Below, in pieces: positions 131 through 25,564 of a stretch of DNA of 32,000 bases. Location: the NCBI RefSeq assembly GCF_037902255.1, contig NZ_CP147990.1, forward strand, positions 2,370,001 through 2,402,000, in the 5' to 3' direction. Numbering within the stretch: the first letter of the stretch is position 1; each line of letters begins with the position of its first letter. Below the pieces are notes generated by a model that made no database searches, had not been told where the DNA came from, and saw only the letters and a list, made by a program, of their open reading frames with translations. Origin of the DNA: Candidatus Electrothrix sp. GW3-4. Lineage in GTDB: Bacteria; Desulfobacterota; Desulfobulbia; Desulfobulbales; Desulfobulbaceae. The position numbers and the translations under genes were made by a program.

Positions 131-970
131 GTGAATATGCGTTGGAAACAATTTCTTACTCCGGTCAAGTCACTCAATGCACCGGAGACCAGAAAGTACC
201 TGAATGATCTTTCCGTTGATGACTATAACATCATAGATGTACGCCAACCTGGTGAGTATAAAAGTGGACATATCCCAGGGGCAAAACTCATCCCAGTGGC
301 GGAACTGGCCGAGCGCAGCAAAGAGCTTGACCCGGAAAAGCCCACCGTAGTCTACTGAGCCATTGGCGGGCGCAGCCGGGTTGCTGCCCAGATGCTGGCA
401 GGTAAAGGGTTTGCCGAGGTAATCAATATGGCTGGCGGGATCAAGGCCTGGAACAGTGATACGGCCATTGGCCCTGAGGACACTGGCATGGCCCTGTTCT
501 CGGGCAAGGAAGAGATCGGGGAGGTCCTCCTGATCGCCTATGCCTTAGAGGCCGGGCTTCAGGATTTCTACACCTTGATGCAAGAGCAGGTCAGGCAGGA
601 GGAGGTCAGGTCTCTGTTCAGTAAGCTCAGCGCCATTGAGGTGAAGCATCAGGATCGGATCTTTGCTGAATACCAGCAGATAACAGCGCCCCCCCTGAGC
701 CGGGAAGAATTTGAGCGTAAGGCAGAGGTCCAGGCTATGGAGGGCGGCCTGACCACTGAGGAGTACCTGGCCCTCTACCCCACTGATATGGAGGTGGCTA
801 CGGAAGTACTTTCTCTGGCCATGGGCATTGAGGCCCAGGCCCTTGACCTCTATCTCCGGGCGGCTGCCAACTGTTCCGATGGAGCGACCCAGCAGACCCT
901 TCTTCGTATTGCCGAGGAAGAGCGCACCCACCTCAAACTACTGGGCGATCTGATGGACGAAAGAGCATGA
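131..970 (+). CDS. Rhodanese-domain / ferritin-like (rubrerythrin-type diiron) fusion protein, read through an in-frame TGA (356-358) as selenocysteine
   Basis: ORFs 131-358 and 392-970 share a frame (392-131=261). The TGA falls where the rhodanese active-site loop CxxGxRS has its Cys: ...KPTVVY[TGA]AIGGRSRVAAQMLAGKGF..NMAGGIKAW. The C-terminal half carries E / ExxH / E / ExxH motifs (LEAGLQDFY, AIEVKHQ, GIEAQALDLY, AEEERTHL). The start is GTG 131 or ATG 137. Confidence 0.75.
359..399 (+). promoter_or_regulatory. SECIS-like stem-loop immediately 3' of the in-frame UGA
   Basis: The lower stem pairs GCCA (359-362) with TGGC (396-399). The upper stem pairs GGcGCAGC (369-376, c371 bulged) with GCTGCC C (383-389). 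The apical loop is CGGGUU (377-382), about 21 nt after the UGA. Folded by eye only. Confidence 0.5.
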
Positions 971-1005: not shown

Positions 1006-2118
1006 ATGAGCAAACGACTGGTAATTGCTGGTGGCGGCCATGCCCATATGCTGACCCTGGCCCACCTGGAGGACTTTGTTGCCAAGGGCTTTGAGGTGAC
1101 AGTGATTGGCCCGGACAGCCACCATTACTATTCCGGCATGGGACCGGGCATGTTGGGCGGCACCTACCGCCCCGAGGAGATCCGCTTTGCCACCCAGCAG
1201 CTGGTGGAGAACAAGGGCGGCCTGTTTATCCAGGCCAAGGTAACCGGTATCCAGCCTCTTGAACGGGCCGTCCGGCTCAGCTCTGGTGAGGAGGTGCCCT
1301 ATGATGTCCTGTCCTGCAACCTGGGCAGCCAGGTCCCGGCGGATCTGATCAAGGGACCGCTGGAGGATATCTTTCTGGTCAAACCCATTGAGCGGCTGTT
1401 CAAGGCCAGGCAACGGATCCTTGAACTGGGGGCCAAGCAAAGGATAAGGATCGCCGTGGTAGGCGGCGGCCCCTCTGCGGTGGAGATCGCGGGCAATATC
1501 TGGCGGCTGGGCCAGGAGCCCGGTATGCAGGAACCGGCCATCACCGTCTTTGCCGGTCGTTCCCTGATGCCCCATCATTCGCCAGGGGTGCGCCAGCGGG
1601 CCGTGGCCTCCCTTGCTGCCCGCTCCATCAAGGTCATCAGTAACACCCGGGTGCAACAGATCCATCAGCGCCAGCTCTTTGATAGCGAGGGCATCACCCA
1701 CAAGTTCGATATCATCTTTGTGGCGGTGGGGGTGCAGCCCAACAGGCTCATTGGCGAGTCCGGCATCCCCACTGGCCCCCAGGGCGGCATGCTGGTGAAC
1801 CGCTATCTGCAAAGCATTAAGCATACGCGCATCTTTGGTGGCGGGGATTGCATTGACTTCCAGGACAGGCCCTTGGACAAGGTGGGGGTCTATGCGGTCC
1901 GCCAGAACCCCATTCTCCGGCATAACCTGATGGCAGCCCTGACCGGGGAGCGGATGCAGGCCTTTGCACCTGGGGGCAAGTATCTCCTCATCTTCAACCT
2001 GGGGGATGGCACAGGGATCCTCAGTAAGTGGTCCATGGTGCTGGGCGGGCGGCTGGCCTTCTTTATCAAGGACTGGATCGACCGCCGCTTTATGCGCACC
2101 TTTCAGGCCTTTGAGTAG
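1006..2118 (+). CDS. FAD-dependent pyridine nucleotide-disulfide oxidoreductase (NDH-2/SQR-like; GGGHAH...YSGMxPG subfamily)
   Basis: The N-terminal Rossmann motif is LVIAGGGHAH, a second dinucleotide motif is IAVVGGGPSAVE, and GGGDC lies near the C-terminus. SD GAGGA sits 7 nt upstream of the ATG. Confidence 0.85.
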   Translation: MSKRLVIAGGGHAHMLTLAHLEDFVAKGFEVTVIGPDSHHYYSGMGPGMLGGTYRPEEIRFATQQLVENKGGLFIQAKVTGIQPLERAVRLSSGEEVPYDVLSCNLGSQVPADLIKGPLEDIFLVKPIERLFKARQRILELGAKQRIRIAVVGGGPSAVEIAGNIWRLGQEPGMQEPAITVFAGRSLMPHHSPGVRQRAVASLAARSIKVISNTRVQQIHQRQLFDSEGITHKFDIIFVAVGVQPNRLIGESGIPTGPQGGMLVNRYLQSIKHTRIFGGGDCIDFQDRPLDKVGVYAVRQNPILRHNLMAALTGERMQAFAPGGKYLLIFNLGDGTGILSKWSMVLGGRLAFFIKDWIDRRFMRTFQAFE

Positions 2119-2150: not shown

Positions 2151-2306
2151 GGGGAGACACAGAGGTCTCCCCCTACGGGTGGCGTATTGATTCATCGCCT
2201 GCCCTGAAGAGGCCGTATTCATCAGCCCGGTGCAACGGGCTGGGGGTTTGCTGCACCGAAGATCAGTTGGGGTCTACCCCTACTGGGCGTTGGGGTCTAC
2301 CCCAAC
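2151..2306. repeat. GC-rich hairpin repeats with CCCCTAC tails
   Basis: GGGGAGAC-acagag-GTCTCCCC+CTACGGG lies at 2151-2179. GTTGGGGTCTACCCC occurs twice (2266-2280 and 2289-2303), and the second copy forms GTTGGGG-tcta-CCCCAAC. Confidence 0.5.
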
Positions 2307-2368
2307 AGACCGTTCCTGGATAGGGGAAAGAGATCAGCAGGAGATTCCGGGACCGCCGCTGCATTTGC

Positions 2369-2451: not shown

Positions 2452-3528
2452 ATGGCAGCAATTCAATGGAGACCAGTACCCAACCACCTGACCACCCCTG
2501 ACTCTTACAGCATCTGCTTTGTCTCACGCGGCTCTGCCGGGCTTAATGATCTTGCCTCGGACATCACCCTGCATCATCCCAATTTCAGTAAGGACGATAT
2601 CATCACCATCCTCCATGCCGAGGACGAGGCCATTCTGGAACGGCTGCTCAATGGCGAGCAGGTGACCAAAGAGGGCAGCCTGAGCTGGTTTCCCTCCTTC
2701 ACCGGCAGATTAGACAACCCGGACGACCCGCTGCCGCCCCTGGATGAATGCCTGCACCTCAACACCCGCATCTCCGCGCCCTTTCTCGAACATCTGCGCC
2801 AGGAGGCCCAGACCGAGCGCCTGCCCATGCGCGAAAAACTGCCAGTCATCACTGCTGCCGAAGACACGGTGCTGGGCCTGCGCGATGTCCTGCGCTCGGA
2901 TGGCATGCTCCGCCTTACAGGCAACAACCTCTCCTTTGACCGCAACGATATCGGCTCCCACTGCCTGATTGAGGGGACCCGCAGCGGCAGCGCGGTCCAG
3001 AGCCGGGTCGGCACCATTGCCAACAGCGAGATCGTGCTCATGCCTGATGTGCCCAGCCAGGACGATCCATGGAACAATGAGTACCGCCTTTCCGTGACCA
3101 CCCATTACACCGAGCACGGCACGCCGCGCACTGGCACCTACAAACGGATGCTGCGCAGCCCCCTGAGCATCACCCTCAGCAGCAGTGGGCCGCCCGCGAA
3201 TATCGGCATCCTCACTGGCAGTGCAACTGCGCCCCATGTGAGCGTCACCGGGGCCACGATGAGTGAGGATACCAGCCTCCGCATCCAGGTCATTCAGGAC
3301 CTGCCTGGCAACCGGCTCCTCTTTAACCTCCTTGATATGGACAAGGACGGACAGGCAGGCGAGCAGGTCAGCCTGACCACGGACGGCAGTCTCAGCCTGT
3401 CCGGCTTTACCGGCTCGCCCCTGAGCTCCCTGGCCCTCACGGTCAATGACTATGCTGCCCTCTGGGAGATGCTCCGTAAGGAATACGGTGGCAGGCTGGT
3501 GGATACACTTGATATCACATCAACATAA
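2452..3528 (+). CDS. Hypothetical protein (the N-terminus resembles HU-HIG-type DNA-binding domains and the remainder may be DUF4469/Ig-like; tentative)
   Basis: A 358-aa ORF with a strong SD (GGAGGAG) and its own promoter. The family assignment is recalled from sequence pattern only. Confidence 0.65.
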   Translation: MAAIQWRPVPNHLTTPDSYSICFVSRGSAGLNDLASDITLHHPNFSKDDIITILHAEDEAILERLLNGEQVTKEGSLSWFPSFTGRLDNPDDPLPPLDECLHLNTRISAPFLEHLRQEAQTERLPMREKLPVITAAEDTVLGLRDVLRSDGMLRLTGNNLSFDRNDIGSHCLIEGTRSGSAVQSRVGTIANSEIVLMPDVPSQDDPWNNEYRLSVTTHYTEHGTPRTGTYKRMLRSPLSITLSSSGPPANIGILTGSATAPHVSVTGATMSEDTSLRIQVIQDLPGNRLLFNLLDMDKDGQAGEQVSLTTDGSLSLSGFTGSPLSSLALTVNDYAALWEMLRKEYGGRLVDTLDITST

Positions 3529-3588: not shown

Positions 3589-4188
3589 ATGCGAGAGAAA
3601 CACGACTGGGATAAACGCTACGACGAGGACGATATGCCCTGGGATACGGGCATGCCGGAGATCACCCTGATCAATCTGATTGCTCAATGGCCCCAAGGCA
3701 TTAAGCGGGTACTGGAGATCGGCTGTGGCACCGGCAGCAATGCAGTCTGGCTGGCTGAACAGGGCCTGGAGGTAACAGCAATGGATATCTCGGACAAGGC
3801 CCTTGCCCTGGCAGAAAAACGCTGCGCAGAACATGCCGTACAGTGTCGCCTGATCAGAACAGACTTTCTCACCTGCACCCCGGCTGGCCAGTACGACCTC
3901 CTCTTTGACCGGGGGTGTTTCCATTGCACAGAGGAAGAAGCAACACAAAGGGACTTTGTCCAGCAGGCTACGGTCCATCTCAAACCAGGCGGCTTTTGGC
4001 TAAGCCTGATCGGCAACAAAGACCAGGTATCGCCGGAAGGCAAAGGCCCTCCCCGGCTCTCTGCCAGCGAGATATGCACGGCAGTGGAGCCTGCCTTTGA
4101 GATCCTCAGCCTGCAATCTATACTTAAACCCTCGCCCAAGCAGCCCAGGCCACTCAGGTTCTGGCATTGCCTGATGCGGATGAGGTAA
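3589..4188 (+). CDS. Class I SAM-dependent methyltransferase (TPMT/TehB-like)
   Basis: Motif I is VLEIGCGTGSNAVWLAEQG..V.AMDIS. The N-terminal WDKRY...PWD pattern resembles the thiopurine/tellurite methyltransferase families. SD AGGAGAGG. Confidence 0.85.
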   Translation: MREKHDWDKRYDEDDMPWDTGMPEITLINLIAQWPQGIKRVLEIGCGTGSNAVWLAEQGLEVTAMDISDKALALAEKRCAEHAVQCRLIRTDFLTCTPAGQYDLLFDRGCFHCTEEEATQRDFVQQATVHLKPGGFWLSLIGNKDQVSPEGKGPPRLSASEICTAVEPAFEILSLQSILKPSPKQPRPLRFWHCLMRMR

Positions 4189-4865: not shown

Positions 4866-6032
4866 CTACCGCACACTACGATCCAACATAGCCCGCAGGC
4901 CGCCCTGCTCGCTCGGGGTAGAGCCAAAAACCTCCTGCCAGATATTCTCGCTCTCCATGCAAAAGTAGATGCAGGTGCGGGGATGGGCAAAGCGGGCCAG
5001 CTCATCAGCGATGAGCTGGTACATCTCCACCCGCTGACTCCGGAAATAACGGGCCTTGCCGTCCAGCCCCTCCACAAACTCCTCATAGAAAAACCTGGAC
5101 TGGGGAAAGCGCTCAGCAGCGATATTGCGTAAGGCGGGCAGATAACGCAGGGCCCCCAGACTGATCCAGGCGATACGGTCCGCAGGCACCGTGCGAAAGA
5201 GCTGCCGGATGGTGGCCCGGTAGCCCTCCTGCCAGCCCTCATGCCAGATAATGGGATCAAAATGAAAGGCCAGGCGATAGCCCCAATCCGCACAACGGAC
5301 CGCAGCGGCCAGCCGCTCCTCCAGACTGGCGGTCCGGATCTCTTCCTGTTCCATAATCGGAGGACTGTTCAGAGACCAGGCCACCAGGGTACGCCCGCCG
5401 TGATCCAGCCCTTCCAGGTTGTCTATGACCACGGACTTGGACTTGAGCTCCAGGACCGCGTTCTCCTTATCCCGCATATAGTCCACCAACAGGGGGCTAA
5501 AACGAGTCAGGCTGTCCAGGGCCAGGCTGTCGGTGAACTCGCCAGTACCGATACGGAGAAAGGTCTGCGGGTCCGCGGCAAAGGCCGCATCCAGCTCAGC
5601 GAACAGGTCTTGGATATTGACAAAGAAGCTGATCCAGGGGTTATTGAGATAGGCCTGGAGAATGCAGTAGACGCAGTCCATGGGGCAGCCCATGCCGATA
5701 TTAAGGACCTGGTATTCACAGCAGGTGTACTCCCGGGTAGCAGGACAGGGCTTAAAGAACTGGCCCCGGTTCCGACAGAGAAGGAGGTAGTGTTTGCCCT
5801 GGCTCAGGTTACCCGGATAGGCCCCGGCAACCACAGGGTGCTGCCGGTCCCCAATGACCGTGACTGGCAACCGACTCCGCTGCATGATCTCCTGGGTATA
5901 GGGATCCTGCTGGCACTCTTCGCTCACATAGAGTTGGGTGATGTATTTTGCTGGATCGCCGTAGGACATGAATGCTGGTTTTCTTTTATATGAAAGTGGT
6001 CGGTGAAACCAACCAGGCTTCCCTTCTTTCAT
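4866..6032 (-). CDS. Spore-photoproduct-lyase-family radical SAM protein (SplB-like)
   Basis: The radical SAM cluster motif is GCPMDCVYCILQAY, and overall length and layout fit the SPL family. An alternative start lies at MSYGD, 22 codons in. Confidence 0.8.
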   Translation of the reverse strand: MKEGKPGWFHRPLSYKRKPAFMSYGDPAKYITQLYVSEECQQDPYTQEIMQRSRLPVTVIGDRQHPVVAGAYPGNLSQGKHYLLLCRNRGQFFKPCPATREYTCCEYQVLNIGMGCPMDCVYCILQAYLNNPWISFFVNIQDLFAELDAAFAADPQTFLRIGTGEFTDSLALDSLTRFSPLLVDYMRDKENAVLELKSKSVVIDNLEGLDHGGRTLVAWSLNSPPIMEQEEIRTASLEERLAAAVRCADWGYRLAFHFDPIIWHEGWQEGYRATIRQLFRTVPADRIAWISLGALRYLPALRNIAAERFPQSRFFYEEFVEGLDGKARYFRSQRVEMYQLIADELARFAHPRTCIYFCMESENIWQEVFGSTPSEQGGLRAMLDRSVR

Positions 6033-6042
6033 GTTTTCTTGT

Positions 6043-6060
6043 CCCTCCCAGAGGGGAGGG
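6043..6060 (-). terminator. CCCTCCC/GGGAGGG hairpin after the dehydrogenase stop, overlapping the SD of the SPL-family gene
   Basis: CCCTCCC-agag-GGGAGGG. On the minus strand its 3' arm GGGAGGG lies about 10 nt upstream of ATG 6032. Confidence 0.35.
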
Positions 6061-6062
6061 CG

Positions 6063-7340
6063 TTATAAGGACCCGTCTGCCAGGCCCTTGGCCAGCACAT
6101 TCTTGACATCATAGACCACAAAGCTCGGACGAGTGAGCCGCTCCAGGTCCTTCTGATCCAATTGCACGAACTCCTGGTGGGCAACGGCCAGCACCACGGC
6201 GTCATAGCTATTCCAGGGCAGGGTCTCGGTCATGATGACCCCGTAATAGCGATGGGCCTCCTCCGGGTCGACCCAGGGATCATAGACCTCCACCTCGGCC
6301 CCGTACGAACTGAGCTCATCAATAATATCCGTTACCCGGGTATTGCGCAGGTCCGGGCAGTTTTCCTTAAAGGTCAGGCCAAGGATGAGGATCCGGGCGT
6401 CCGCCACTGGGATCCGTTGCATGAGCATCAACTTGACCACCTCTGAGGCGATATAGCGGCCCATGTCATCATTCAGCCGTCGCCCGGCCAGGATCATCTC
6501 GGGATGATAGCCCACCTGCTGGGCCTTATGGGTCAGATAATAGGGATCCACCCCGATGCAATGGCCGCCCACCAGGCCAGGGCGAAAGGGGAGGAAGTTC
6601 CACTTGGTGCCTGCTGCCTCCAGGACCTCCAGGGTATTAATCCCCAGCCGGTTGAAGATCAGGGCCAGTTCATTGACCAGGGCAATATTGACATCCCGCT
6701 GGGTGTTCTCAATGACCTTGGCTGCCTCAGCCACCCGGATACTGGTGGCCTTAAAGGTGCCCGCCGTGATAATGGTCTGGTAGAGCGCATCCACGAACTC
6801 GGCAATCTTAGGGGTGGAGCCGGAGGTCACCTTGACAATGCTCGGCAGGCGATGTTCATGGTCACCTGGATTGATCCGTTCCGGGCTGTAGCCAGCAAAG
6901 AAGTCCTGATTATAGACCAACCCGGATTCCTGCTCCAGGATCGGGACACAGACCTCCTCAGTGGCACCGGGATAGACCGTTGACTCATAGATCACCACAT
7001 CGCCCGCTTTCAGGACCTGGGCCACGGTGCGGGAGGCCCCTTCTAAAGGACGAAGATCAGGCCGCTTAGCATCATCAATAGGGGTGGGCACAGCAATGAT
7101 AAAGACCGTACAGGTCCGCAGGTCCTCAATACGGGCTGTGAACTGGAGTTGTTTGGCGCTGACCAGCTCCTCGGAAGGCACCTCGCGGGTGAGGTCAATC
7201 CCCTGCCGTAACTGGGCAATCCGCTCTTCCTTCAGGTCAAAACCGACACAGGGCAGCTTCTTACTGAATTCCACAGCCAGCGGCAGACCAACATAACCGA
7301 GACCGATAATAGCTAATTTGGTGGAATGGATATCAGGCAT
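6063..7340 (-). CDS. Nucleotide-sugar dehydrogenase (UDP-GlcNAc/GalNAc 6-dehydrogenase type; TviB/WbpA/CapL-like)
   Basis: [18 protein letters not shown] Rossmann start, the catalytic region [11 protein letters not shown] and a C-terminal UDP-binding domain. The start is moved to ATG 7340 because the GTG-7400 extension is not family-like. Confidence 0.9.
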
Positions 7341-7400
7341 GTTTTTTCTTGGGTTGATGGGATAAAGGAAGCAAGACGAACAGAGGCCGTTAGAAAGCAC

Positions 7401-8075
7401 TCAGACCCCTCGCCGGGCATCGGGCCAAAGCTGGCTATGGAGCTGGAGCTGCAACCTGATCGGCAGCTGCTCCTGCAGGACTAGCTCAGCAAGCAGGGCC
7501 GGAGATAAGCGCTCAATGACCGGAGAAAAAAGGACCGGTACCTGTTCGGTCAGCGTATATTGTCGCACAATATCCAGGGCCCAGGCCACATCCTCAGGTG
7601 AGCAAAGGACAAACTTGACCTCATCACGACTCCCAGCCTGTTGCCGTTGCTCCAGTAAGGCAAGATTGGGCCAGTAATTCTGCTCTGTCATTCCAGAGTC
7701 AGGCGTTTTCAGGTCCATGATAACGCTGACCGCTGTCGGAACCCGCTCAATACTCAGACTGCCCCCGGTTTCCAGCAGGACCTTACGCTCATCGGCTACG
7801 AGCTGTTCCAGGAGAGGATACACCGCCTCCTGCAGCAAGGGTTCACCACCAGTGATCTCCACCATGACTCCGGGAAAATCTGCGAGCCAATCCTCTACCT
7901 GTTCAATGCCCATGACCCTGCCCTCTTCTTCCCAGGTATAGCGAGAATCACAATAGGAGCAGCGCAGATTACAGACGCAGAGCCGAACAAAGACGCAAGG
8001 AAGCCCTGCCCAGGTGGACTCCCCCTGAAGAGAGTAAAAGAGCTCGGAAACGAGCAATGAAGCGGAATCAGGCAC
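7401..8075 (-). CDS. queE: 7-carboxy-7-deazaguanine synthase
   Basis: LFYSLQGES..G.PCVFVRL..CNLRCSYCDS is the radical SAM QueE signature. The gene overlaps queD by 8 nt. Confidence 0.9.
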   Translation of the reverse strand: MPDSASLLVSELFYSLQGESTWAGLPCVFVRLCVCNLRCSYCDSRYTWEEEGRVMGIEQVEDWLADFPGVMVEITGGEPLLQEAVYPLLEQLVADERKVLLETGGSLSIERVPTAVSVIMDLKTPDSGMTEQNYWPNLALLEQRQQAGSRDEVKFVLCSPEDVAWALDIVRQYTLTEQVPVLFSPVIERLSPALLAELVLQEQLPIRLQLQLHSQLWPDARRGV

Positions 8076-8439
8076 CGTAATAAATCACGCCGCTGGAGTC
8101 GGTTTCCCGGACCTGCACGGAATAGAGGGAGTAACGCTCTGTTTTTAAACCTGCTGTCAGCTGCTCGAAAAGAAAGGTGGCAATATGCTCGGAAGAGGGA
8201 TTATGGTCCTGAAAGGCAGGGTGCTCGTTCAGGTCACAGTGATCCAACTCATCAACAACGCTGTTGACCTCTTTTTTTAAGACCTTAAAATCGATCCCCA
8301 TCCCTAATTTGTCCAGTTCCTGCACCCGCACAGTGACCTTTACCTTCCAGTTATGGCCATGTGGTTTTTCACAGTTACCAGGATAATCCCGGAGATGGTG
8401 GCCCCCGGAGAAATGGGTTTTTATAAAAACATCAAACAT
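8068..8439 (-). CDS. queD: 6-carboxy-5,6,7,8-tetrahydropterin synthase
   Basis: A 123-aa protein with HxxxGHNW(K)V and CxxxHGH-type PTPS motifs (CEKPHGHNWKVKVTV). Confidence 0.9.
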   Translation of the reverse strand: MFDVFIKTHFSGGHHLRDYPGNCEKPHGHNWKVKVTVRVQELDKLGMGIDFKVLKKEVNSVVDELDHCDLNEHPAFQDHNPSSEHIATFLFEQLTAGLKTERYSLYSVQVRETDSSGVIYYGA

Positions 8440-8644
8440 AATGAGTCCTTTTAAAACGCACAGCAGGTTCGCAGAATCAAAGAGTTGATGGACGAACCGC
8501 CAGCCTTATACCTTATAGTTATAATCATACGTTACGTTATATCATGCTCGAACGTTCCCTCTAGTATAACGACGACTCATGGAGAATACTACTTTTTTCT
8601 CCACACACTGCCTGTCAGGTGCCTTACCGCAAAAAGCAAGGCTG

Positions 8645-10339
8645 TTACTGCTCTACGACCTGCTCTTCAAAGGCGGCCAGCTGCCCTTCCAGCTTCCACT
8701 GCATGGCAGCCCGCCTACTCCCCTGGAGGAATCGGTTACAGGAAGCAGAGCCATGAGTGGCTCCAGCAGGATCTTGAGCGCAGGCATTGACAACTCGCTC
8801 ATAACGCCCCTCTTCTTGCCAGAGACTTGCTCCGGGCAGGAAACTATGCTCCACACTGGCCCGGACCATCCGCTTCAGCTCAGAGTATCCGAGATGCTGA
8901 TGCGTCACCGCCCGGACAAACTCATCAGTGATATCAATCCGCAGGATCCCTGCATGGTCAGTGGCCAAGACGACCGGAACTCCCTGGCCCAGGTAGAGAT
9001 TCAGGGGGTGAGAACGTCCTGTCTTCCCCAGCAAGACGGCGTTGGAGGTCAAGCAGGCCTCGACCAGCACGCCCCTCTCGCGCATCCTCGTAAGTAACTC
9101 GGTGTGGTCCTCCTCGCCCAGCACGTCACAGCCGTGCCCGACCCGCTCGGCATGCCCCATTTCCACAGCATGACGGATGTGGAATTTCAGATGCCATTGC
9201 CCCTCCAGAGTATCTGGCACGAGTTCCGGGATCAGCTCACCAGCAGGCAGGGCGATCCGAACAGGTTGTTGCTGGGTATCGGCTTGTTTGAGGCGATGGA
9301 GCACATCCAGGGCAAACATCTCGTCATCATAATAGGCAAGCGAGTTCTCATGCTCCTCCGGCCCCATCAAGCCAATCCCTAAAACCAATGGTGATTGCCG
9401 GGCGAGCTCGTAACCGTAGACCCATTGGCCAAACACATACCCTCGATCCCTGGTCCGATTGGCAGACATAAGAAATCTGACCTCCACAGCACAGCCTGGA
9501 TCAGGGTTGCCTGTCTTGCAACCAAGCAAGTCCCGGGCACCGGCCACCCATTTTTTCAGATTAGCAGTGGTATGAGCCACGGTCTTTTGAAAAAGCGGAT
9601 CCGCCATGATCTGTTGACGCCTTTTCAGCAATACCGTTTCGGTCCACGGATCATCCGGCTGAATATATCTGGCAGCACGTTTGCCCACCTGATCTGAATT
9701 AAGACCATGCAGCAACTCCACATAGGAGTGTGTGTTCTTTCCGGCAATAGACAGGATATCGGCCAGACTATCGACCAGGCGTTTCTTGGAAAGCACCGCG
9801 TCGAATTTATCCAGGGCATCCCAAAAATGCTGCTGCGCCTCCTGTCTGCTGCCCTGAAAATGCTCCATGGACCACTCCTGCACAATTTTCCGGTGCAGGG
9901 CTCTCTCTGCCATGGCCTCTTGCATGGGCACGGCCTTTCCTTGACAGGGAGGCGATTCTGCTGTCCAATTCTTCCGGTTAATGCAGAGGCCATCAGCAGC
10001 ACCCCATGCAATCAGACGCTCCGTGCTCACGGACCCGGCAAGATCCATATGGAGACCTGCACCTTTAGGTAGAGGTAAAAAAAACTCCCGCAACTGTTCC
10101 GGGTCGTGCGCCAGAGATCGTAATTTCCAGTCAATGAGCATTTCCCGATAACGGGCATCGTCCTTGCTCGGGGATATCAGGCGGGTATGTTGTTTCTGAA
10201 CGGTTTCTACCGGAACCTGGGCCATACGGGTTGCTCCTCTGGTCTTGACAACTTTGGTGTTGACGGGCAGGATACAGCCCTGGAGAGTCAAACCTATACC
10301 CATGACACACAGCCAGGATGTTTTTCGTATATTTTTCAT
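8645..10339 (-). CDS. Adenosine/AMP-deaminase-family protein, predicted lipoprotein
   Basis: A signal peptide with lipobox LTLQGC, then ADA-fold landmarks (ERVGHG, CLTSN, LATDHAG). Several canonical metal-ligand positions look substituted (see findings). Confidence 0.7.
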   Translation of the reverse strand: MKNIRKTSWLCVMGIGLTLQGCILPVNTKVVKTRGATRMAQVPVETVQKQHTRLISPSKDDARYREMLIDWKLRSLAHDPEQLREFFLPLPKGAGLHMDLAGSVSTERLIAWGAADGLCINRKNWTAESPPCQGKAVPMQEAMAERALHRKIVQEWSMEHFQGSRQEAQQHFWDALDKFDAVLSKKRLVDSLADILSIAGKNTHSYVELLHGLNSDQVGKRAARYIQPDDPWTETVLLKRRQQIMADPLFQKTVAHTTANLKKWVAGARDLLGCKTGNPDPGCAVEVRFLMSANRTRDRGYVFGQWVYGYELARQSPLVLGIGLMGPEEHENSLAYYDDEMFALDVLHRLKQADTQQQPVRIALPAGELIPELVPDTLEGQWHLKFHIRHAVEMGHAERVGHGCDVLGEEDHTELLTRMRERGVLVEACLTSNAVLLGKTGRSHPLNLYLGQGVPVVLATDHAGILRIDITDEFVRAVTHQHLGYSELKRMVRASVEHSFLPGASLWQEEGRYERVVNACAQDPAGATHGSASCNRFLQGSRRAAMQWKLEGQLAAFEEQVVEQ

Positions 10340-10651: not shown

Positions 10652-11335
10652 GTGACAACAGTACGAGTTGATTATACTGCACATGATGCGATCTATCAAA
10701 AAAACAAGGAGACAGGACGCCCAGGTTGGGATACGGCGACAGGAACAGCACAGACGCTCCTCAAGTGGCAAGAGATACTTCAAAGCAGATATATACCTGA
10801 TAAGGGCAGAGTTCTGGAGCTCGGCTGCGGTGCTGGTGACCTCAGCCTCTGGCTCACCACAAAGGGCTACGAGGTCTCCGGGGTAGATATTTCACCAACC
10901 GCCATCGACTGGGCACGTGAAAAAGCACAAGCAGGCAATGCACTGGTAGATTTTCATCTCGGCAACGTTATCAATCTCTCCACATACCAGGAGAGTGCCT
11001 TTGACCTTGTTCTGGATAGCCACTGCCTGCACTGTATCATCGGGGACCACCGCGCCCTGTTCCTCAGATCTGCCTACCGAGTTCTCCGCCCTGCCGGTTG
11101 TTGTATCATCAAAACAATGTGCGGCAGACCCGCCAAGGGGTGGTCACCCGGGCATTTTGATCCACAGACCCGTTGTCTGATTCGAAAGGACGGCCTGGCA
11201 ACCCGTTATCTTGGCCTGTCCAAGGACATTATGCAGGAGGTGGTGGACGCAGGTTTTCAGCTCAAAGAGTGGAAGATACGGCCAGCAAGCTGCGAGGAAG
11301 ATCAAGGCGAACTGCTCGTGTACGCAATAAGGTAA
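10652..11335 (+). CDS. Class I SAM-dependent methyltransferase
   Basis: VLELGCGAGDLSLWLTTKGYEVSGVDIS is motif I. GTG start with GGAG 7 nt upstream. Confidence 0.85.
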   Translation: MTTVRVDYTAHDAIYQKNKETGRPGWDTATGTAQTLLKWQEILQSRYIPDKGRVLELGCGAGDLSLWLTTKGYEVSGVDISPTAIDWAREKAQAGNALVDFHLGNVINLSTYQESAFDLVLDSHCLHCIIGDHRALFLRSAYRVLRPAGCCIIKTMCGRPAKGWSPGHFDPQTRCLIRKDGLATRYLGLSKDIMQEVVDAGFQLKEWKIRPASCEEDQGELLVYAIR

Positions 11336-18792: not shown

Positions 18793-20232
18793 TTAATCCT
18801 TGAGGCAACGGACAGAGAAGCCGCCTGCGCGGCTGTAGCTGAACAGGGAGGCGAAGCCGCTACTGAAGTCCAAGACGCGGGCGCTGGCTCCATCGACCGT
18901 ACTGCCCCAGTAGATGCCGCTGCTGCCCGCGTTGCCGAGCGTGCCGAAGCTGCTGCGATAACCTGCCGCTACAAGCTTCAGGGGTGAATCAAAAAGTGCG
19001 ATGCCGGTTGCTCCGTATTGATCGATCTCATCCTGCCACTCCGTATCTGTGGGCAACCGGAAGCTGGTGGGACAGGGATTATTTATACCGGCTACACCAT
19101 TCCAGAGCGCGGGGTCCGGCGTGCTCAGCCAATCTGTGAAGCCGGTTATAAAATTCCCATGATCGGGTTGGGGCTGTGCGCCACCCCATTGAGTACCTAC
19201 AGTGCCGCTGTCCCGCTGTTCATGGCCGTCTGTCGGTCGGCCCCACTGGTACAGATCGCCGTAGGCGGCTGTATCGTCAAACGACGTTGCCACCTGACTC
19301 GCACCCAGGTTGCGGTCCATCCAGACCTTGCCGGTAGCAGATGTAACCGTGGGTACGGATAGATCATATACCTTAGTCAACGACATCCAAGCAGTACCGT
19401 CGCACCCCTCGAAATCCGACCCGCTCCAACGGATCTTCCCTGTAGCGGCCGCGTCACAATTCGCGGAAGATGACTCCAACTTCAGCTCACCATCCACATG
19501 CAAGGCCGCCGCAGGGGTGGCTGCACCCGGACCAATACCCACATTCACTGTCGCGGTCACTTGGTCGGTTCCATCTGTCCAGGAGCTGGTACCAGCGGGG
19601 CCTGTGGGGCCTGTGGGCCCCTGAGCACCCTCTGCACCTTGTGGCCCTGCTACTCCCTGCGGACCTTCTGCACCCTGAACTCCCTGAGATCCCTCTGCAC
19701 CTTGCGGACCTGCTACGCCCTGCGGACCTGCTACGCCCTGCGGACCTTCTGCACCCTGAACTCCTTGAGCACCCTGCGCTCCTTGTGGACCTGCTACTCC
19801 CTGCGGACCCTCAGCACCCTGAACTCCCTGAGATCCCTCTGCACCTTGTGGACCTGCTACTCCCTGCGGACCTTCTGCACCCTGAAAGCCCTGAGCACCC
19901 TGCGGGCCAATTTCACCCGTATCACCCTTCCCCGCCATCAGGCTCCAATAGGTCTCATTGGGCGGAATATTGGCGGACGAGGACTCATGATTCTTCACGC
20001 AGAGATAGCTACTGCCACCGTACTGCATCCCGTCTCCGATGGCATACTGAAAGCCGTCCTGCCACTCTCCGGTCCAATAGATGGACGCACCGATATTGGT
20101 CGTACTGCCCAGCGGTATCACCACCACTTTATTCGCCTGCACCGCAGGCGCAGTGAGCATTAAAGAGACCAGACATAGGGCTGCCAGGCTCCGATTTTTT
20201 TTCCTGCTGCTGAAATCTTTCGTTCTTTGCAT
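18793..20232 (-). CDS. Secreted mosaic protein: signal peptide, CBM5/12-like module, collagen-like GXY region, beta-rich stalk, and a C-terminal FISUMP (Fibrobacter succinogenes major paralogous) domain
   Basis: The start is set at ATG 20232 (SD AGGAGA; signal LAALCLVSLMLTAPAVQA). The CBM-like motif is YWTGEWQDGFQYAIGDGMQYGGSSYLCVKNH....P...YW. There are 38 GXY triplets. The FISUMP motifs are VWMDRNLGA..YGDLYQWGR...NPCPTSFRLPTDTEW...GFSVRCLKD. Confidence 0.85.
   Translation of the reverse strand: MQRTKDFSSRKKNRSLAALCLVSLMLTAPAVQANKVVVIPLGSTTNIGASIYWTGEWQDGFQYAIGDGMQYGGSSYLCVKNHESSSANIPPNETYWSLMAGKGDTGEIGPQGAQGFQGAEGPQGVAGPQGAEGSQGVQGAEGPQGVAGPQGAQGAQGVQGAEGPQGVAGPQGVAGPQGAEGSQGVQGAEGPQGVAGPQGAEGAQGPTGPTGPAGTSSWTDGTDQVTATVNVGIGPGAATPAAALHVDGELKLESSSANCDAAATGKIRWSGSDFEGCDGTAWMSLTKVYDLSVPTVTSATGKVWMDRNLGASQVATSFDDTAAYGDLYQWGRPTDGHEQRDSGTVGTQWGGAQPQPDHGNFITGFTDWLSTPDPALWNGVAGINNPCPTSFRLPTDTEWQDEIDQYGATGIALFDSPLKLVAAGYRSSFGTLGNAGSSGIYWGSTVDGASARVLDFSSGFASLFSYSRAGGFSVRCLKD
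19585..19926 (-). repeat. Coding tandem repeat (9-bp GXY periodicity with nested 63/144-bp higher-order units)
   Basis: For example, 19657-19719 and 19801-19863 differ at about 4 of 63 positions. The protein blocks GAEGSQGVQGAEGPQGVAGPQ recur 48 aa apart. Confidence 0.9.
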
Positions 20233-20296
20233 ATACTTTCTCCTGTTTTCCAAACGGAACGCCCAATCGCCCATTAATATTTCTGTTTCTCTGCTA

Positions 20297-20569
20297 TCAG
20301 GAAATCCCGATCGCATTACGTCCAGCGCATTTCGCATCGTTGATCGTGATCTGACAGGCATCAGCCGGGGTCATCTGGCGACAGTTGGGCAGCAGGCTGG
20401 TGACCGGCTCTTCCGCCGGGCCATGGGGTCCCACGCTTCCTTCGACTCCCTCCCGGTTAACCTTGATATTGCCCGAGCGGAGCTCGTCCTTGAGCACAGC
20501 CACCACAACACAGACAACTATCACCAAGCCCACAGCGACAACCGAAGCGATCTGTACCTTTTCCGACAT
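20297..20569 (-). CDS. Small single-pass membrane protein (hypothetical)
   Basis: A 90-aa ORF with an N-terminal TM (IASVVAVGLVIVVCVVVAVL) and a strong SD (GTAGGAGAAAACCATG). It sits directly upstream of the collagen-like gene. Confidence 0.55.
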   Translation of the reverse strand: MSEKVQIASVVAVGLVIVVCVVVAVLKDELRSGNIKVNREGVEGSVGPHGPAEEPVTSLLPNCRQMTPADACQITINDAKCAGRNAIGIS

Positions 20570-22508: not shown

Positions 22509-24020
22509 TCACTTCTTCTTTTTCTTCTTCTTAGGCTCAGCAACAACCTCAGCCTTCAGATGCGGAAAGAGAATCACGTCCCGGATGGACGGAGAATCCG
22601 TGAGCAGCATCACCAGGCGATCAATCCCGATGCCCTCCCCTGCTGCCGATGGCATTCCGTACTCCAGGGCCCGGACATAATCCGCATCCAACTCAGGATG
22701 GATCTCCTCATCATCGCCCCGCTCCGCAATCTGCTTGGCAAAGCGCTCGTGCTGATCAATGGGGTCGTTGAGCTCGGAAAAGGCATTGGCCAACTCCCGC
22801 CCGGTAATAAAGAGCTCAAAGCGGTCAGTGATGGTCGGGTCTTCTTCATTGCGACGAGCCAGCGGAGAGACCTCTGCCGGATAGGCCGTGATAAAGGTGG
22901 GATCAATGAGTTTTTCTTCCACCAGCAGCTCGAACAACTCGGTCTTGGCCTTACCCGGACCGGCATCAGGCTGGAGCTTAATCCCGTGCTTCTTTGCCAA
23001 CCCCATGATGGTGGCATCATCCTTGAGCAGCTCAGGATCAAGGCCGCCCACTTCAATCAGGGCCTCGTCCATGGTGTAGCGCTGCCAAGGTGGTGCCAGA
23101 TTCACCGGGATGCCCTGGTAGACAATCTCTGCTGAGCCACAGACCTGGGTGGCGATGGAGGAAACCATCTCCTCGGTCAAATCCATCAGATCCTCATAAG
23201 TCGCATAGGCCTGGTAGAACTCCAGCATGGTGAATTCCGGATTATGGCGGGTGGAAAGGCCCTCATTGCGGAAGTTACGGTTGATCTCAAAGACCCGCTC
23301 AAAGCCACCCACCAACAGGCGCTTGAGATAGAGCTCCGGCGCGATACGGAGAAAGAGATCCATATCCAAAGCATTATGATGGGTCTTAAAGGGCTTGGCC
23401 GTGGCCCCACCCGGTACCGGCTGCATCATAGGTGTTTCCACCTCCATGAAACCCCGCTCAGTGAGAAATTCGCGCATCAGACGGATAATCTCCACCCGCT
23501 TGCGGAAGGTATCCCGGACCTCAGGATTGACGATCAGGTCCACATAGCGCTGGCGGTAGCGGGTCTCCACATCGGTCAGGCCGTGGAACTTCTCCGGCAA
23601 GGGGCGCAGGGACTTCGTGATCATGTGCAGATGCGCAGCCTCCAGAGAGGGCTCGCCGGTCTTGGTCTTGAACAACTTGCCCTCAACCCCGACGATATCA
23701 CCCACATCCCATTTTTTAAAGAGCTGGAATTCCTCAGCCAGCAGGTCGCGACGGGCATAGATCTGCATCCTTCCGGTCTCATCCTGGACATGAAAAAAGG
23801 CGGCCTTGCCAAATTTGCGCAGAGACATGATACGACCAGCCACCCGATACACCACATCATCCGGGGCATGGGTTTCCGGTTCCAGGTTGTCTGCTAAAGG
23901 CAGAATTTCCCGGACCGCTTGAGGGTTTTTAAAATCATTGCTAAAAAGAGTAACCCCGGCCTCGGCCAGGGTTTCTGCTTTCTCACGTCGCTGCTTGAGG
24001 AGTTGGTTCTGATTGTCCAT
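22509..24020 (-). CDS. lysS: Lysine--tRNA ligase, class II, with a C-terminal heptalysine tail
   Basis: Full-length class IIb layout: an N-terminal OB anticodon-binding domain and motifs 1-3 (e.g. FMEVETPMM, RNEG.S..HNPEFT.LE.Y, GEGIGIDRLVMLLT). It ends ...AEVVAEPKKKKKKK. Confidence 0.95.
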   Translation of the reverse strand: MDNQNQLLKQRREKAETLAEAGVTLFSNDFKNPQAVREILPLADNLEPETHAPDDVVYRVAGRIMSLRKFGKAAFFHVQDETGRMQIYARRDLLAEEFQLFKKWDVGDIVGVEGKLFKTKTGEPSLEAAHLHMITKSLRPLPEKFHGLTDVETRYRQRYVDLIVNPEVRDTFRKRVEIIRLMREFLTERGFMEVETPMMQPVPGGATAKPFKTHHNALDMDLFLRIAPELYLKRLLVGGFERVFEINRNFRNEGLSTRHNPEFTMLEFYQAYATYEDLMDLTEEMVSSIATQVCGSAEIVYQGIPVNLAPPWQRYTMDEALIEVGGLDPELLKDDATIMGLAKKHGIKLQPDAGPGKAKTELFELLVEEKLIDPTFITAYPAEVSPLARRNEEDPTITDRFELFITGRELANAFSELNDPIDQHERFAKQIAERGDDEEIHPELDADYVRALEYGMPSAAGEGIGIDRLVMLLTDSPSIRDVILFPHLKAEVVAEPKKKKKKK

Positions 24021-24753: not shown

Positions 24754-25564
24754 TCATGCTCTCAATCCTGCCGGAGATATTGGTGTTATTTTTCAGGCGC
24801 CCGGCAAATCGGTAGCCAGTCCGGGCAAAGGTGATGTTCATGGCTGGCGAGGCAGCACGGGCAATGGTATAGGCGGTATGGATCTGTTCCTTCTCCATGG
24901 CCCTTTCCATCTGCTGGAGAAGATGGAAAGAGAGATTATGGCCTGCCTGCTCCGGCAGGGTGGCAAAGTCTGTCATCTCCACATTGGCGGCCTCCCTGTC
25001 CATCTCTGCCGAGGCCAGGGCCGCGAGCTTGCCCTCGTTTTCCACGCCGAAATAGGCGACATGGCTCTGCATAGTCTCCAGCAGATACCCGGCCTCATGG
25101 ATGGGAAAGGGGTAGGAGGCAAAGGTCTGGTGATAGATGGCCGCCATTTCCTGGATATCCTCCTCGTGACATGGACGAAGCTGAAAACGGGCAGCAGGAG
25201 ACGACACCGCTGTTCCCTGCTTGTTGTGGGCAATATGCAGGATATCTTCCAGACGCGCAACATCCTCTTCCTGCTTACGGGCGTTCTGCAAATAATAGCC
25301 CATGAACAGAGCCCCTGTTCGGCCGGAAAAGAAACCGGGGATTTCCGCCTCCGTTGCAAAACCTGCCTGCAAAAAATCACTGGAAACATCTTCAGAAACC
25401 TTAGCAAAAATCTTGGAATAGCCCTTTCTTTCTGCCAGACTGATCAGCTGCTGGGGGAAATCGGCCGAGGGCTGGTCAGCAAGCCGCATAAGATAAATGC
25501 GATCATTATACGGCCCGTGCTGGATGGTGCTCCCCTGATACTCCTCAATCTTATCCTTCAACAT
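24728..25564 (-). CDS. ablB: GNAT acetyltransferase, putative beta-lysine N6-acetyltransferase
   Basis: The N-terminus ...[18 protein letters not shown] and a C-terminal GNAT core. ATG 25564 overlaps the 3' end of the lysine 2,3-aminomutase gene by 14 nt, the classic ablA-ablB arrangement. Confidence 0.7.

What the first reader, a model, noticed from the sequence alone, without database searches (positions are those of the whole stretch)
131..970. In-frame UGA at the catalytic Cys position of a rhodanese fused to a diiron ferritin-like domain: a probable selenoprotein
- Two same-frame ORFs (131-358 and 392-970) are separated only by TGA 356-358 and 11 sense codons.
- Read through, the junction gives ...EKPTVVY-U-AIGGRSRVAAQML.GKGF...AGGIKAW. 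This is a textbook single-domain rhodanese active-site loop (C-x-x-G-x-R-S) with the stop codon exactly where the persulfide-forming Cys sits.
- A two-tier hairpin (359-399) with a G/U-containing apical loop starts right after the UGA, at the position expected for a bacterial SECIS.
- The C-terminal half has a complete E/ExxH/E/ExxH diiron motif set.
- Automated callers would split or truncate this gene. Sec-containing rhodanese-like proteins have been listed in computational selenoproteome surveys, but I cannot say whether this rhodanese(Sec)-ferritin-like architecture has been described.
Basis: partly seen in the sequence, partly recalled or inferred. Interest (0 to 1): 0.72.

Follow-up and report, generated by a model that had tools for sequence, protein, structure and literature searches.

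The report
Selenocysteine rhodanese–diiron fusion gene
The apparent stop codon at 356-358 is almost certainly read as selenocysteine at the catalytic position of a sulfur-transferase (rhodanese) domain fused to a diiron domain; this one gene is widespread in sulfate-reducer and cable-bacteria lineages, and gene callers routinely split it in two.

Summary
Window 137-970 (+) is one gene: a rhodanese domain, an in-frame UGA at 356-358 at the catalytic Cys position, and a ferritin-like diiron domain. All 207 full-length database homologs are continuous and carry Cys there. A TGA-specific DNA pattern hit 120 species-representative genomes, where the scan stopped. These are Desulfobacterota-type lineages, including cultured isolates and four Ca. 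Electrothrix genomes. All hits are the same fusion; in 101 the complete read-through gene is recovered, with about 200 open codons after the TGA. dN/dS is about 0.04-0.06 on both sides of the TGA. A hairpin at 371-388 (6-nt loop CGGGUU, 18 nt after the UGA) shows compensatory changes. At least 5 of its 6 pairs can form in 108/116 Sec forms but only 13/61 Cys forms over the same peptide. A flavoprotein related to the Ndh-like N-terminal domain of SelD fusions is a conserved downstream partner. Sec-rhodaneses, including a UxxG motif type, are already catalogued, so this is a new or under-described member of a known kind. Sec machinery could not be checked. Biochemical function is inferred only.

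The parts
137..970 (+). Single CDS of 277 codons: rhodanese(Sec74) fused to a ferritin-like diiron domain. UGA 356-358 is read as Sec. The gene's own stop codon is also TGA (968-970).
   Evidence: Translation. Continuous homologs of about 276 aa that start MRWKQF. 120 TGA-bearing loci, 101 with the complete read-through gene recovered.
356..358 (+). In-frame UGA, the predicted selenocysteine codon, at the catalytic Cys of the rhodanese active-site loop (U-A-I-G-G-R-S).
   Evidence: Cys at this column in all 207 full-length homologs. TGA at this column in at least 120 genomes. dN/dS 0.04-0.06 on both sides.
371..388 (+). Core SECIS-like hairpin. 5' arm 371-376 (CGCAGC), apical loop 377-382 (CGGGUU), 3' arm 383-388 (GCUGCC). 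C371 and C388 are mismatched in this window, and G370-C389 can close the stem. The loop starts 18 nt after the UGA.
   Evidence: 89.7% of cells paired in 116 distinct Sec forms, covariation score 0.084 vs 0.027 in shuffles (0/500), 17 doubly compensated cells. At least 5 of 6 pairs in 108/116 Sec forms vs 13/61 Cys forms. Hairpin energy -8.25 vs -2.84 kcal/mol, p = 1e-20; -5.9 kcal/mol in this window.
200..457 (+). Rhodanese domain (aa 22-107). The UGA lies inside it.
   Evidence: PF00581, 78 bits against a cutoff of 22.2. Structural matches to solved rhodanese domains at rmsd 1.5-3 Å.
521..952 (+). Ferritin-like / rubrerythrin-type four-helix-bundle diiron domain (aa 129-272). Ligand codons: E138 (548-550), E168 (638-640), H171 (647-649), E232 (830-832), E262 (920-922), H265 (929-931). 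No rubredoxin domain.
   Evidence: PF02915, 39 bits against a cutoff of 22.8. The six ligands are invariant in 44 sequences. The AlphaFold model has four long helices, pLDDT 82.8. Foldseek match to the COG1633 ferritin-like protein 2oh3.
1006..2118 (+). Conserved partner gene: a 370-aa FAD-dependent pyridine-nucleotide-disulfide oxidoreductase (Ndh-like). It starts 35 nt after the fusion gene with no terminator-like site between them.
   Evidence: PF07992, E 2e-28. Best NCBIfam match is TIGR03169 'Nterm_to_SelD', 261.6 bits, full length, below the 310 cutoff. Immediately downstream on the same strand in 82/106 Sec loci and 33/75 Cys loci with enough sequence, 98 loci in all by clustering. No terminator-like site between 970 and 1006.

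Best explanation
Window 137-970 is one selenoprotein gene. Shown by comparative evidence: the ribosome reads UGA 356-358 as a sense codon. The only known bacterial mechanism that fits is SelB/Sec-tRNA(Sec) recruitment by a SECIS hairpin just downstream. Here that hairpin is the stem-loop 371-388, with a G-rich 6-nt loop 18 nt after the UGA, built from the codons for R79-S80-R81-V82-A83-A84. Sec74 replaces the persulfide-forming Cys of a single-domain rhodanese. Inferred: Sec74 accepts a sulfane sulfur (or selenium) atom as a Se-S(-) or Se-Se(-) adduct. It passes that atom to, or receives it from, redox chemistry carried out by the fused diiron four-helix bundle and the co-transcribed NAD(P)H/FAD flavoprotein. 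This would be a persulfide-processing module, analogous to rhodanese fused to persulfide dioxygenase or to NADH-dependent persulfide reductase. Sec and Cys versions interconvert repeatedly within the family.
For: Sec decoding: (1) Cys is at the TGA column in all 207 full-length homologs, all continuous. All are the same Rhd-Rbr fusion; 101 give a complete read-through gene (64 of them 276 aa), the rest mostly running off the locus. Neither feature was imposed by the pattern. (3) Sec forms are 36-98% identical to each other, median 54%. dN/dS between the window and four Electrothrix Sec forms is 0.036-0.047 upstream and 0.041-0.065 downstream of the TGA, with dS above 1. (4) SECIS: structure A has 89.7% of cells paired, covariation 0.084 vs 0.027 (0/500 shuffles), and CG-to-AU double changes at two pairs (17 cells). 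Some of these cost an Ala-to-Ser substitution. Slid registers reach at most 72.6% paired. (5) Cys-form control over the same peptide: at least 5/6 stem pairs in 108/116 Sec vs 13/61 Cys (Fisher p = 7e-23). Ala83 is GCU in 91% of Sec forms vs 16% of Cys forms. Within the same Sec sequences GCU is only 20% at Ala75 and 17% at Ala84, which serves as an internal control. (6) The hairpin meets the published bSECIS constraints in PMC13188914 Fig. 2A: 6-nt loop, G at loop position 2 followed by G or U, 18-nt spacing. (7) The same mRNA ends with a TGA stop (968-970), so UGA is not reassigned genome-wide. Function: the rhodanese loop residues and six diiron ligands are invariant. The closest solved rhodanese domains are those of persulfide dioxygenase-rhodanese fusions, Npsr, CoADR-RHD and CoAPR. 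The flavoprotein partner is conserved.
Against: No Sec machinery genes are in the window, and the source genome could not be scanned. No experimental data exist. In this particular window the comparative hairpin is only -5.9 kcal/mol because of the C371/C388 mismatch. A competing register with a 3-nt loop is the MFE at -13.3 kcal/mol. Overall folding energy does not distinguish Sec from Cys forms (p = 0.58) or the window from its shuffles. The compensatory changes probably reflect only about 3-4 independent events, because the sequences are related. The Cys control came from metagenomes and the Sec set from genomes, so lineage composition differs. The functional model is by analogy only. Neither the substrate nor the direction of redox chemistry is known.
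Confidence: 0.9

Rival explanations
1. Pseudogene or sequencing error: a recent TGC/TGT-to-TGA nonsense change, or a miscalled base, in an ordinary Cys-rhodanese-rubrerythrin gene.
For: Close relatives at about 80% identity carry Cys. Gene callers treat the TGA as a stop. The identical Logan contig may come from the same sample, so it does not count as independent resequencing.
Against: TGA sits at the same column in at least 120 species-level genomes, including four Electrothrix genomes with saturated synonymous divergence and dN/dS about 0.05 downstream. A TGA-form-specific hairpin with compensatory changes is present.
Confidence: 0.02
2. Two real genes: a truncated 73-aa rhodanese fragment ending at TGA, and a separate rubrerythrin-like protein starting at ATG 392.
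For: ATG 392 (Met86) exists and is ATG in 100/120 Sec loci. Databases hold such 191-aa 'rubrerythrin' fragments.
Against: The split would cut the rhodanese fold at its active-site loop, leaving its last strand and helix on the second protein. About 16/120 loci have no start codon at that position. The codons between the TGA and Met86 that the search pattern did not fix (V82-Q85) vary at synonymous sites while the peptide stays conserved. All Cys homologs are continuous.
Confidence: 0.02
3. UGA is read through but not as Sec, for example near-cognate Cys or Trp insertion or another programmed read-through, with the hairpin acting as a generic read-through stimulator.
For: Sec insertion was not demonstrated and the Sec machinery was not checked. 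A Cys product would be functional, since Cys forms are common.
Against: The position is a catalytic Cys with repeated Cys/TGA interchange, which is the signature used to define selenoproteins (PMC13188914). The hairpin fits the bSECIS model in spacing and loop. All carrier lineages belong to the phylum described as among the most selenoprotein-rich (PMC13188914). Sec-rhodaneses are already catalogued.
Confidence: 0.05

Closest known systems
[quoted passage not shown]
   Same: Single-domain PF00581 rhodanese with Sec at the catalytic Cys. The motif U-x-x-G matches (U-A-I-G). Occurs in Deltaproteobacteria/Desulfobacterota. Predicted computationally by Sec/Cys pairing plus a bSECIS.
   Different: None of the selenoproteome papers I searched mentions a fused rubrerythrin or ferritin-like domain or the flavoprotein partner. 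I could not retrieve the representative (MBM9537886.1) to see whether it is this very family. The other forms are clearly different: form 3 NF041203 (CxU) scores 34 bits against a 115 cutoff, form 5 TsoB scores 18 against 805, and form 4 is COG2897.
Bacterial SECIS (bSECIS consensus model, Zhang & Gladyshev, as summarised in PMC13188914 Fig. 2A)
   Same: Hairpin inside the coding sequence just 3' of the UGA. 6-nt apical loop (allowed 3-9), 5-6 bp stem (allowed 4-16), G at loop position 2 followed by G or U, 18-nt spacing (allowed 16-37).
   Different: In this window the comparative register is only -5.9 kcal/mol, against a model limit of -7.5 or below; the family median is -8.0. A second register satisfies the energy limit. 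No Rfam family matches. SelB binding has not been tested.
Rhodanese fused or coupled to persulfide-processing redox enzymes: persulfide dioxygenase-rhodanese fusion BpPRF (5ve3-5), NADH-dependent persulfide reductase Npsr (3nta), CoADR-RHD (3icr), CoA-persulfide reductase (8a56)
   Same: These are the closest solved relatives of the rhodanese domain by sequence and fold. The logic is the same: a rhodanese Cys carries sulfane sulfur next to an iron or flavin redox centre. Here both an iron domain (fused) and a flavoprotein (adjacent gene) are present.
   Different: The iron domain is a diiron four-helix bundle, not a mononuclear metallo-beta-lactamase fold. The flavoprotein is a separate NDH-2-like protein, not a CoADR type. 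The catalytic residue is Sec. No activity is known.
Rubrerythrin / ferritin-like diiron proteins (PF02915; COG1633, e.g. 2oh3, TM1526 1vjx)
   Same: Four-helix bundle with E / ExxH / E / ExxH ligands, all invariant.
   Different: It lacks the C-terminal rubredoxin domain of classical rubrerythrin and has an N-terminal rhodanese domain instead. Peroxidase function cannot be assumed.
TIGR03169 'Nterm_to_SelD' / Ndh-like domain fused to SelD (PMC2398784, PMC4561486)
   Same: The partner gene aligns end to end with this model (2-365 of 365, E 1e-77). That family is linked to selenium metabolism through fusion to selenophosphate synthetase.
   Different: The score of 261.6 is below the curated cutoff of 310. 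The protein stands alone. No selD was found within about 5 kb in any of 240 loci.

Membership tests
Bacterial selenoprotein gene (Sec-UGA + bSECIS) | In-frame UGA aligned with Cys in homologs | tested here: met
   All 207 full-length homologs have Cys at the column of TGA 356-358.
Bacterial selenoprotein gene (Sec-UGA + bSECIS) | Coding conservation continues downstream of the UGA in the same frame | tested here: met
   Of 120 TGA loci, 101 give a complete read-through gene with about 200 open codons after the TGA. dN/dS downstream is 0.041-0.065 with dS above 1.
Bacterial selenoprotein gene (Sec-UGA + bSECIS) | bSECIS geometry: 3-9 nt loop, 4-16 bp stem, G in the first two loop positions, 16-37 nt from the UGA (PMC13188914) | tested here: met
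   Loop CGGGUU (6 nt), stem of 5-6 bp, G378 at loop position 2, spacing 18 nt. Conserved with covariation in 116 sequences.
Bacterial selenoprotein gene (Sec-UGA + bSECIS) | bSECIS MFE of -7.5 kcal/mol or lower | tested here: inconclusive
   The local MFE is -13.3 kcal/mol but in a different register. The comparative register is -5.9 in the window and has a median of -8.0 across Sec forms, with 72/114 at or below -7.5.
Bacterial selenoprotein gene (Sec-UGA + bSECIS) | selA, selB, selC, selD present in the genome | not testable with these tools
   None are in the 32-kb window (no tRNA; Pfam on 30 ORFs) or in the 17.5-kb Logan locus.
Bacterial selenoprotein gene (Sec-UGA + bSECIS) | Selenium actually incorporated (75Se labelling or MS) | not testable with these tools
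   Requires an experiment.
Rhodanese (PF00581) sulfurtransferase | Pfam model above the gathering score, and active-site loop C-x-x-G-x-R-[ST] | tested here: met
   78 bits against 22.2. Loop U-A-I-G-G-R-S, with R79, S80 and R81 invariant.
Classical rubrerythrin | Diiron four-helix bundle with E/ExxH/E/ExxH | tested here: met
   PF02915 at 39 bits against 22.8. The six ligands are invariant. The model shows four helices.
Classical rubrerythrin | C-terminal rubredoxin-type FeS4 domain (two CxxC pairs) | tested here: not met
   The protein ends at residue 277 straight after helix 4. There are no CxxC pairs in the translation. It is better described as a COG1633-like ferritin-like domain.
NF041203 rhodanese-related (seleno)protein (form 3, CxU) | NCBIfam score at or above the cutoff | tested here: not met
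   34 bits against a cutoff of 115. The motif also differs.
NF045694 TsoB rhodanese/DsbD selenoprotein (form 5) | NCBIfam score at or above the cutoff | tested here: not met
   18.1 bits against a cutoff of 805.
Rhodanese-related sulfurtransferase COG0607, UxxG (form 2) | Single-domain rhodanese with a U-x-x-G motif | tested here: met
   U74-A-I-G77. Table in PMC13188914.
Rhodanese-related sulfurtransferase COG0607, UxxG (form 2) | Orthology to the catalogued representative MBM9537886.1 | not testable with these tools
   The accession could not be retrieved. The review has no supplements held. Sequences containing U are rejected by the look-up tool.
TIGR03169 Nterm_to_SelD (partner gene 1006-2118) | NCBIfam score at or above the cutoff | tested here: not met
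   261.6 bits against a cutoff of 310, though aligned over 2-365 of 365. It is a relative, not a certified member.

The most novel reading that the evidence does not exclude
The Rhd(Sec/Cys)-diiron protein and its Ndh-like flavoprotein partner form a previously uncharacterised two-component redox system. It would mobilise chalcogen atoms carried on the rhodanese Sec or Cys, either sulfane sulfur or selenium as a perselenide. One possibility is NAD(P)H-driven release of selenide for SelD. This could explain why the same flavoprotein family is so often fused to SelD. It would also give the first function to a diiron-rhodanese architecture found in thousands of anaerobe genomes, including cable bacteria.
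Probability: 0.15. Interest if true: 0.7.

Novelty: new member of a known kind. Interest (0 to 1): 0.4.

Why it matters
1. Annotation. In the example tested, a Sec form of this gene is stored only as truncated 'rubrerythrin' fragments, and the window's own locus is called as two ORFs. No NCBIfam selenoprotein model covers the family. A curated model would fix at least 120 species-level genomes and add a selenoprotein to cable bacteria. I found no paper in the searched library that discusses selenoproteins in cable bacteria.

2. Biology. The family is a clean natural experiment in Sec/Cys exchange at a persulfide-forming catalytic residue, with many interconversions.

3. Function. The conserved pairing of rhodanese, a diiron domain and an Ndh-like flavoprotein related to the SelD-fused domain is an uncharacterised module. 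It may bear on sulfane-sulfur or selenium trafficking in sulfate reducers and cable bacteria.

Tried and rejected
- **Thermodynamic significance of the hairpin.** z-scores of -0.63 to +0.99 against shuffles, and no Sec/Cys difference in unconstrained MFE. This is not informative in such a GC-rich coding segment, so I used covariation and a register-specific energy instead.
Not better than shuffles. Rejected in favour of the 6-bp stem with a 6-nt loop.
- **Rfam.** No family matched at gathering threshold in the window. Only chance-level hits appeared in 300-480.
- **Exact look-up of the 192-aa ORF product.** Not on record. The neighbouring protein did locate an identical Logan contig, but it may be from the same sample, so it is not independent.
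- **Look-up of full-length U-containing proteins.** The tool rejects U.
- **Structure prediction of the U-to-C edited window protein.** I modelled the 82%-identical natural Cys form P0001 instead.
- **Other selenoprotein candidates in the window.** A scan for same-frame ORF pairs around a TGA found none credible.
- **selD or other selenium genes near the locus.** Clustering of neighbours in 240 loci found none.
- **TPMT/TehB-like methyltransferase (3589-4188) as part of the module.** Not among the conserved neighbour clusters in other loci, and separated from the operon by a promoter-like site. Rejected.
- **Literature.** No paper combines rhodanese, selenoprotein and rubrerythrin. The rhodanese + rubrerythrin + fusion hits were irrelevant. 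Kryukov & Gladyshev 2004 is not held.
Full report
**Observation.** The sequence is as described. ORFs 131-358 and 392-970 lie in one frame and are separated by TGA 356-358 and 11 sense codons. Homologs begin MRWKQF, so the true start is ATG 137. With the UGA read through, the 277-residue product matches Pfam Rhodanese (E 8e-22, residues 22-107) and Rubrerythrin (E 1e-9, residues 129-272), both above their gathering scores. The UGA lies inside the rhodanese domain, in the loop Y-U-A-I-G-G-R-S.

**Is the UGA a sense codon?**

- A protein search with U replaced by C found 3,497 homologs. The listed ones are about 276 aa, continuous and fused.
- In two searches, all 207 full-length proteins carry Cys at the UGA column.
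- Protein databases cannot show Sec forms, so I scanned 185,579 species-representative genomes with a degenerate DNA pattern encoding T-x-V-Y-TGA-A-[IVM]-G-G-R-S-R. By my own bit count, about 0.3 hits are expected by chance.
- All 120 hits are the same rhodanese-rubrerythrin fusion. In 101 of them the complete read-through gene is recovered (64 are exactly 276 aa), with about 200 open codons after the TGA; most of the rest run off the stored locus. Neither feature was imposed by the pattern.
- Carriers are Desulfotignum, Desulfobacula, Desulfosarcina (including D. cetonica JCM 12296), Desulfofustis, Desulfopila aestuarii DSM 18488, Desulfarculus, and four Ca. Electrothrix genomes (E. laxa, E. 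aarhusensis MCF and two uncultured).
- The window's closest relative is an Electrothrix Sec form at 83% identity. The closest named Cys form is from Ca. Electrothrix scaldis at 76%. The window is therefore from a cable bacterium or a close relative.
- Sec forms are 36-98% identical to each other, median 54%. They interleave with Cys forms: 9 Sec forms have a Cys form as nearest neighbour and 17 Cys forms have a Sec form.
- Between the window and four Electrothrix Sec forms, synonymous sites are saturated (dS above 1). dN/dS is 0.036-0.047 upstream and 0.041-0.065 downstream of the TGA.
- This excludes a recent nonsense mutation or a base-calling error. The gene's own terminator is also TGA (968-970), so UGA is recoded locally, not reassigned.

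**The recoding signal.**

- Folding energies of 350-420, 356-400, 359-399 and 365-392 are not better than dinucleotide shuffles. The thermodynamic argument fails in this GC-rich segment.
- The comparative argument does not fail. In 116 distinct Sec-form sequences the codons R79-S80-R81-V82-A83-A84 are almost frozen as CGC AGC CGK GTN GCT GCN. They form a 6-bp stem (window 371-376 with 383-388) closed by the 6-nt loop C-G-K-G-U-N (377-382).
- On this structure, 89.7% of cells pair. The covariation score is 0.084 against 0.027 in shuffles (0 of 500 reach it). 17 cells carry changes on both sides (CG to AU at two pairs). The best slid register pairs only 72.6%.
- Some compensations (CGA...UCG, AGA...UCU) cost an Ala84-to-Ser substitution. 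A small clade (AGG/CGG AGC CGY GUR GCG GCU) uses a register shifted by two bases, GAGCCG/CGGCUC.
- As a control I collected 120 TGY (Cys) loci from metagenomes and kept those encoding the same peptide. At least 5 of 6 stem pairs form in 108/116 Sec forms against 13/61 Cys forms (Fisher p = 7e-23).
- Ala83 is GCU in 91% of Sec forms against 16% of Cys forms. Within the same Sec sequences GCU is only 20% at Ala75 and 17% at Ala84.
- The energy of this specific hairpin averages -8.25 kcal/mol in Sec forms and -2.84 in Cys forms (p = 1e-20). Unconstrained MFE does not differ.
- Geometry fits the published bacterial SECIS model (PMC13188914, Fig. 2A): loop 3-9 nt, stem 4-16 bp, G in the first two loop positions followed by G or U, and 16-37 nt from the UGA (here 18 nt).
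- Caveats. In this window a C371/C388 mismatch leaves the comparative hairpin at -5.9 kcal/mol, and a 3-nt-loop register is the MFE. The compensatory changes probably represent only a few independent events. No Rfam family matches, which is expected for gene-specific bacterial SECIS elements.

**Rivals.**

- "Two genes" is contradicted. The split would cut the rhodanese fold at its active site. About 16 of 120 loci lack any start codon at the Met86 position. Codons V82-Q85, which the search pattern did not fix, vary at synonymous sites while the peptide stays conserved.
- Non-Sec read-through cannot be formally excluded without experiment. However, Cys/UGA exchange at a catalytic Cys, a bSECIS-compatible hairpin, and restriction to a phylum described as among the most selenoprotein-rich (PMC13188914) all point to Sec.
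- The one refutation criterion I could not test is the presence of selABCD. The window has no tRNA and none of these genes, and neither does the 17.5-kb public contig that contains the locus.

**Public annotation.** A Logan assembly contig (SRR28154588) is identical to the window over 12,118 nt, TGA included. Its gene caller produced a 73-aa Rhodanese ORF and a 180-aa Rubrerythrin ORF. I queried the database with a Sec form from a RefSeq Desulfobacula genome. The nearest entries (94-95% identity) are 191-aa fragments named 'rubrerythrin' that start at the equivalent of ATG 392. The best full-length entry is only 77% identical. No NCBIfam model reaches its cutoff for the protein.

**What the protein may do (inferred).**

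- The rhodanese loop (C/U74, R79, S80, R81) and the diiron ligands (E138, E168xxH171, E232, E262xxH265) are invariant in 44 homologs.
- An AlphaFold model of the 82%-identical Cys form has mean pLDDT 82.8 and pTM 0.72. It shows an alpha/beta rhodanese domain followed by a four-helix bundle.
- There is no rubredoxin domain, so this is not a classical rubrerythrin. The bundle resembles COG1633 ferritin-like proteins such as 2oh3.
- The closest solved rhodanese domains are those attached to persulfide-processing enzymes: persulfide dioxygenase-rhodanese fusions, NADH-dependent persulfide reductase, CoADR-RHD and CoA-persulfide reductase.
- The only neighbour conserved across lineages is the 370-aa FAD-dependent oxidoreductase. 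It starts 35 nt downstream (1006-2118) with no terminator-like site between. It occupies this position in 82/106 Sec loci and 33/75 Cys loci with enough sequence.
- Its best family match is TIGR03169 'Nterm_to_SelD', full length, 261.6 bits against a cutoff of 310. Ndh-like domains of this kind are the commonest N-terminal fusion partner of selenophosphate synthetase (PMC2398784, PMC4561486).
- I therefore propose a two-gene chalcogen-persulfide redox module. Sec74 carries a sulfane sulfur (or selenium) atom, and the diiron domain and flavoprotein supply the redox chemistry.
- Substrate and direction are unknown. No selD lies within about 5 kb in any of 240 loci.

**Novelty.**

- Sec-containing rhodaneses have been catalogued since 2005. 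The 2026 review lists five forms, two with a UxxG motif. One of these, the COG0607 type, was among the most abundant selenoprotein families in the Desulfosarcina-related Olavius symbionts.
- The present family fits the UxxG, COG0607 description and may be that family. I could not retrieve its representative to check.
- None of the papers searched mentions the rubrerythrin or ferritin-like fusion or the flavoprotein partner. No paper in the library links cable bacteria with selenoproteins.
- I file this as a new (or newly delineated) member of a known kind. The selenoprotein call is solid. It is of moderate interest to specialists, useful for annotation, and has an open and potentially interesting function.

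Noticed in passing
window 2159-2311 and 2369-2397: Three copies of a 23-nt motif (GTTGGGGTCTACCCC...) lie in the intergenic region after the flavoprotein gene. They are followed by a near-consensus sigma-70-type promoter (TTGACA-17-TATGAT, 11/12) in front of a 358-aa ORF (2452-3528) with no Pfam or NCBIfam match.
   Followed up: partly
window 3589-4188 and 10652-11335: Two TPMT/TehB-like SAM methyltransferases. Families of this type are annotated for thiopurine methylation and tellurite resistance. They are not among the conserved neighbour clusters found around the Sec gene in other loci.
   Followed up: partly
window 4866-10339 (minus strand): A run of genes: SPL-like radical SAM (4866-6032), UDP-glucose/GDP-mannose dehydrogenase (6063-7400), QueE-like radical SAM (7401-8075), QueD-like 6-pyruvoyl-tetrahydropterin synthase (8068-8439), and a 564-aa protein with an adenosine-deaminase domain (8645-10339). 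This may be a deazapurine or nucleotide-modification cluster.
   Followed up: no
window 18793-20361 (minus strand): A 522-aa protein with collagen triple-helix repeats and a weak Fib_succ_major domain match. This is unusual for a Desulfobulbaceae-type genome.
   Followed up: no
window 968-970: The selenoprotein gene ends with TGA, so the same mRNA uses UGA both as Sec (356-358) and as a stop.
   Followed up: yes
L001-L120 (e.g. L119 3425-4001): In 21 Sec loci, apparently Desulfotignum-type, a classical rubrerythrin with a C-terminal rubredoxin CxxC...CxxC lies about 2.1 kb downstream of the Rhd(Sec)-Rbr gene. In 38 loci a roughly 510-aa ORF, not run through any family library, lies upstream, and in 18 loci a 716-aa membrane-anchored flavoprotein lies downstream. 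All of this context is lineage-specific.
   Followed up: partly
L009, L013, L020, L023, L051, L063, L106 (Sec loci): A sub-clade has the codons AGG/CGG AGC CGY GTR GCG GCT CAA. Its SECIS stem forms in a register shifted by two bases (GAGCCG/CGGCUC). This looks like a case of SECIS register drift within one gene family.
   Followed up: partly
window 22509-24020, 25551-26867, 28241-29929: Lysyl-tRNA synthetase, a lysine-2,3-aminomutase-like radical SAM protein, and a SulP-family sulfate permease with a STAS domain. These are ordinary housekeeping and transport context.
   Followed up: no
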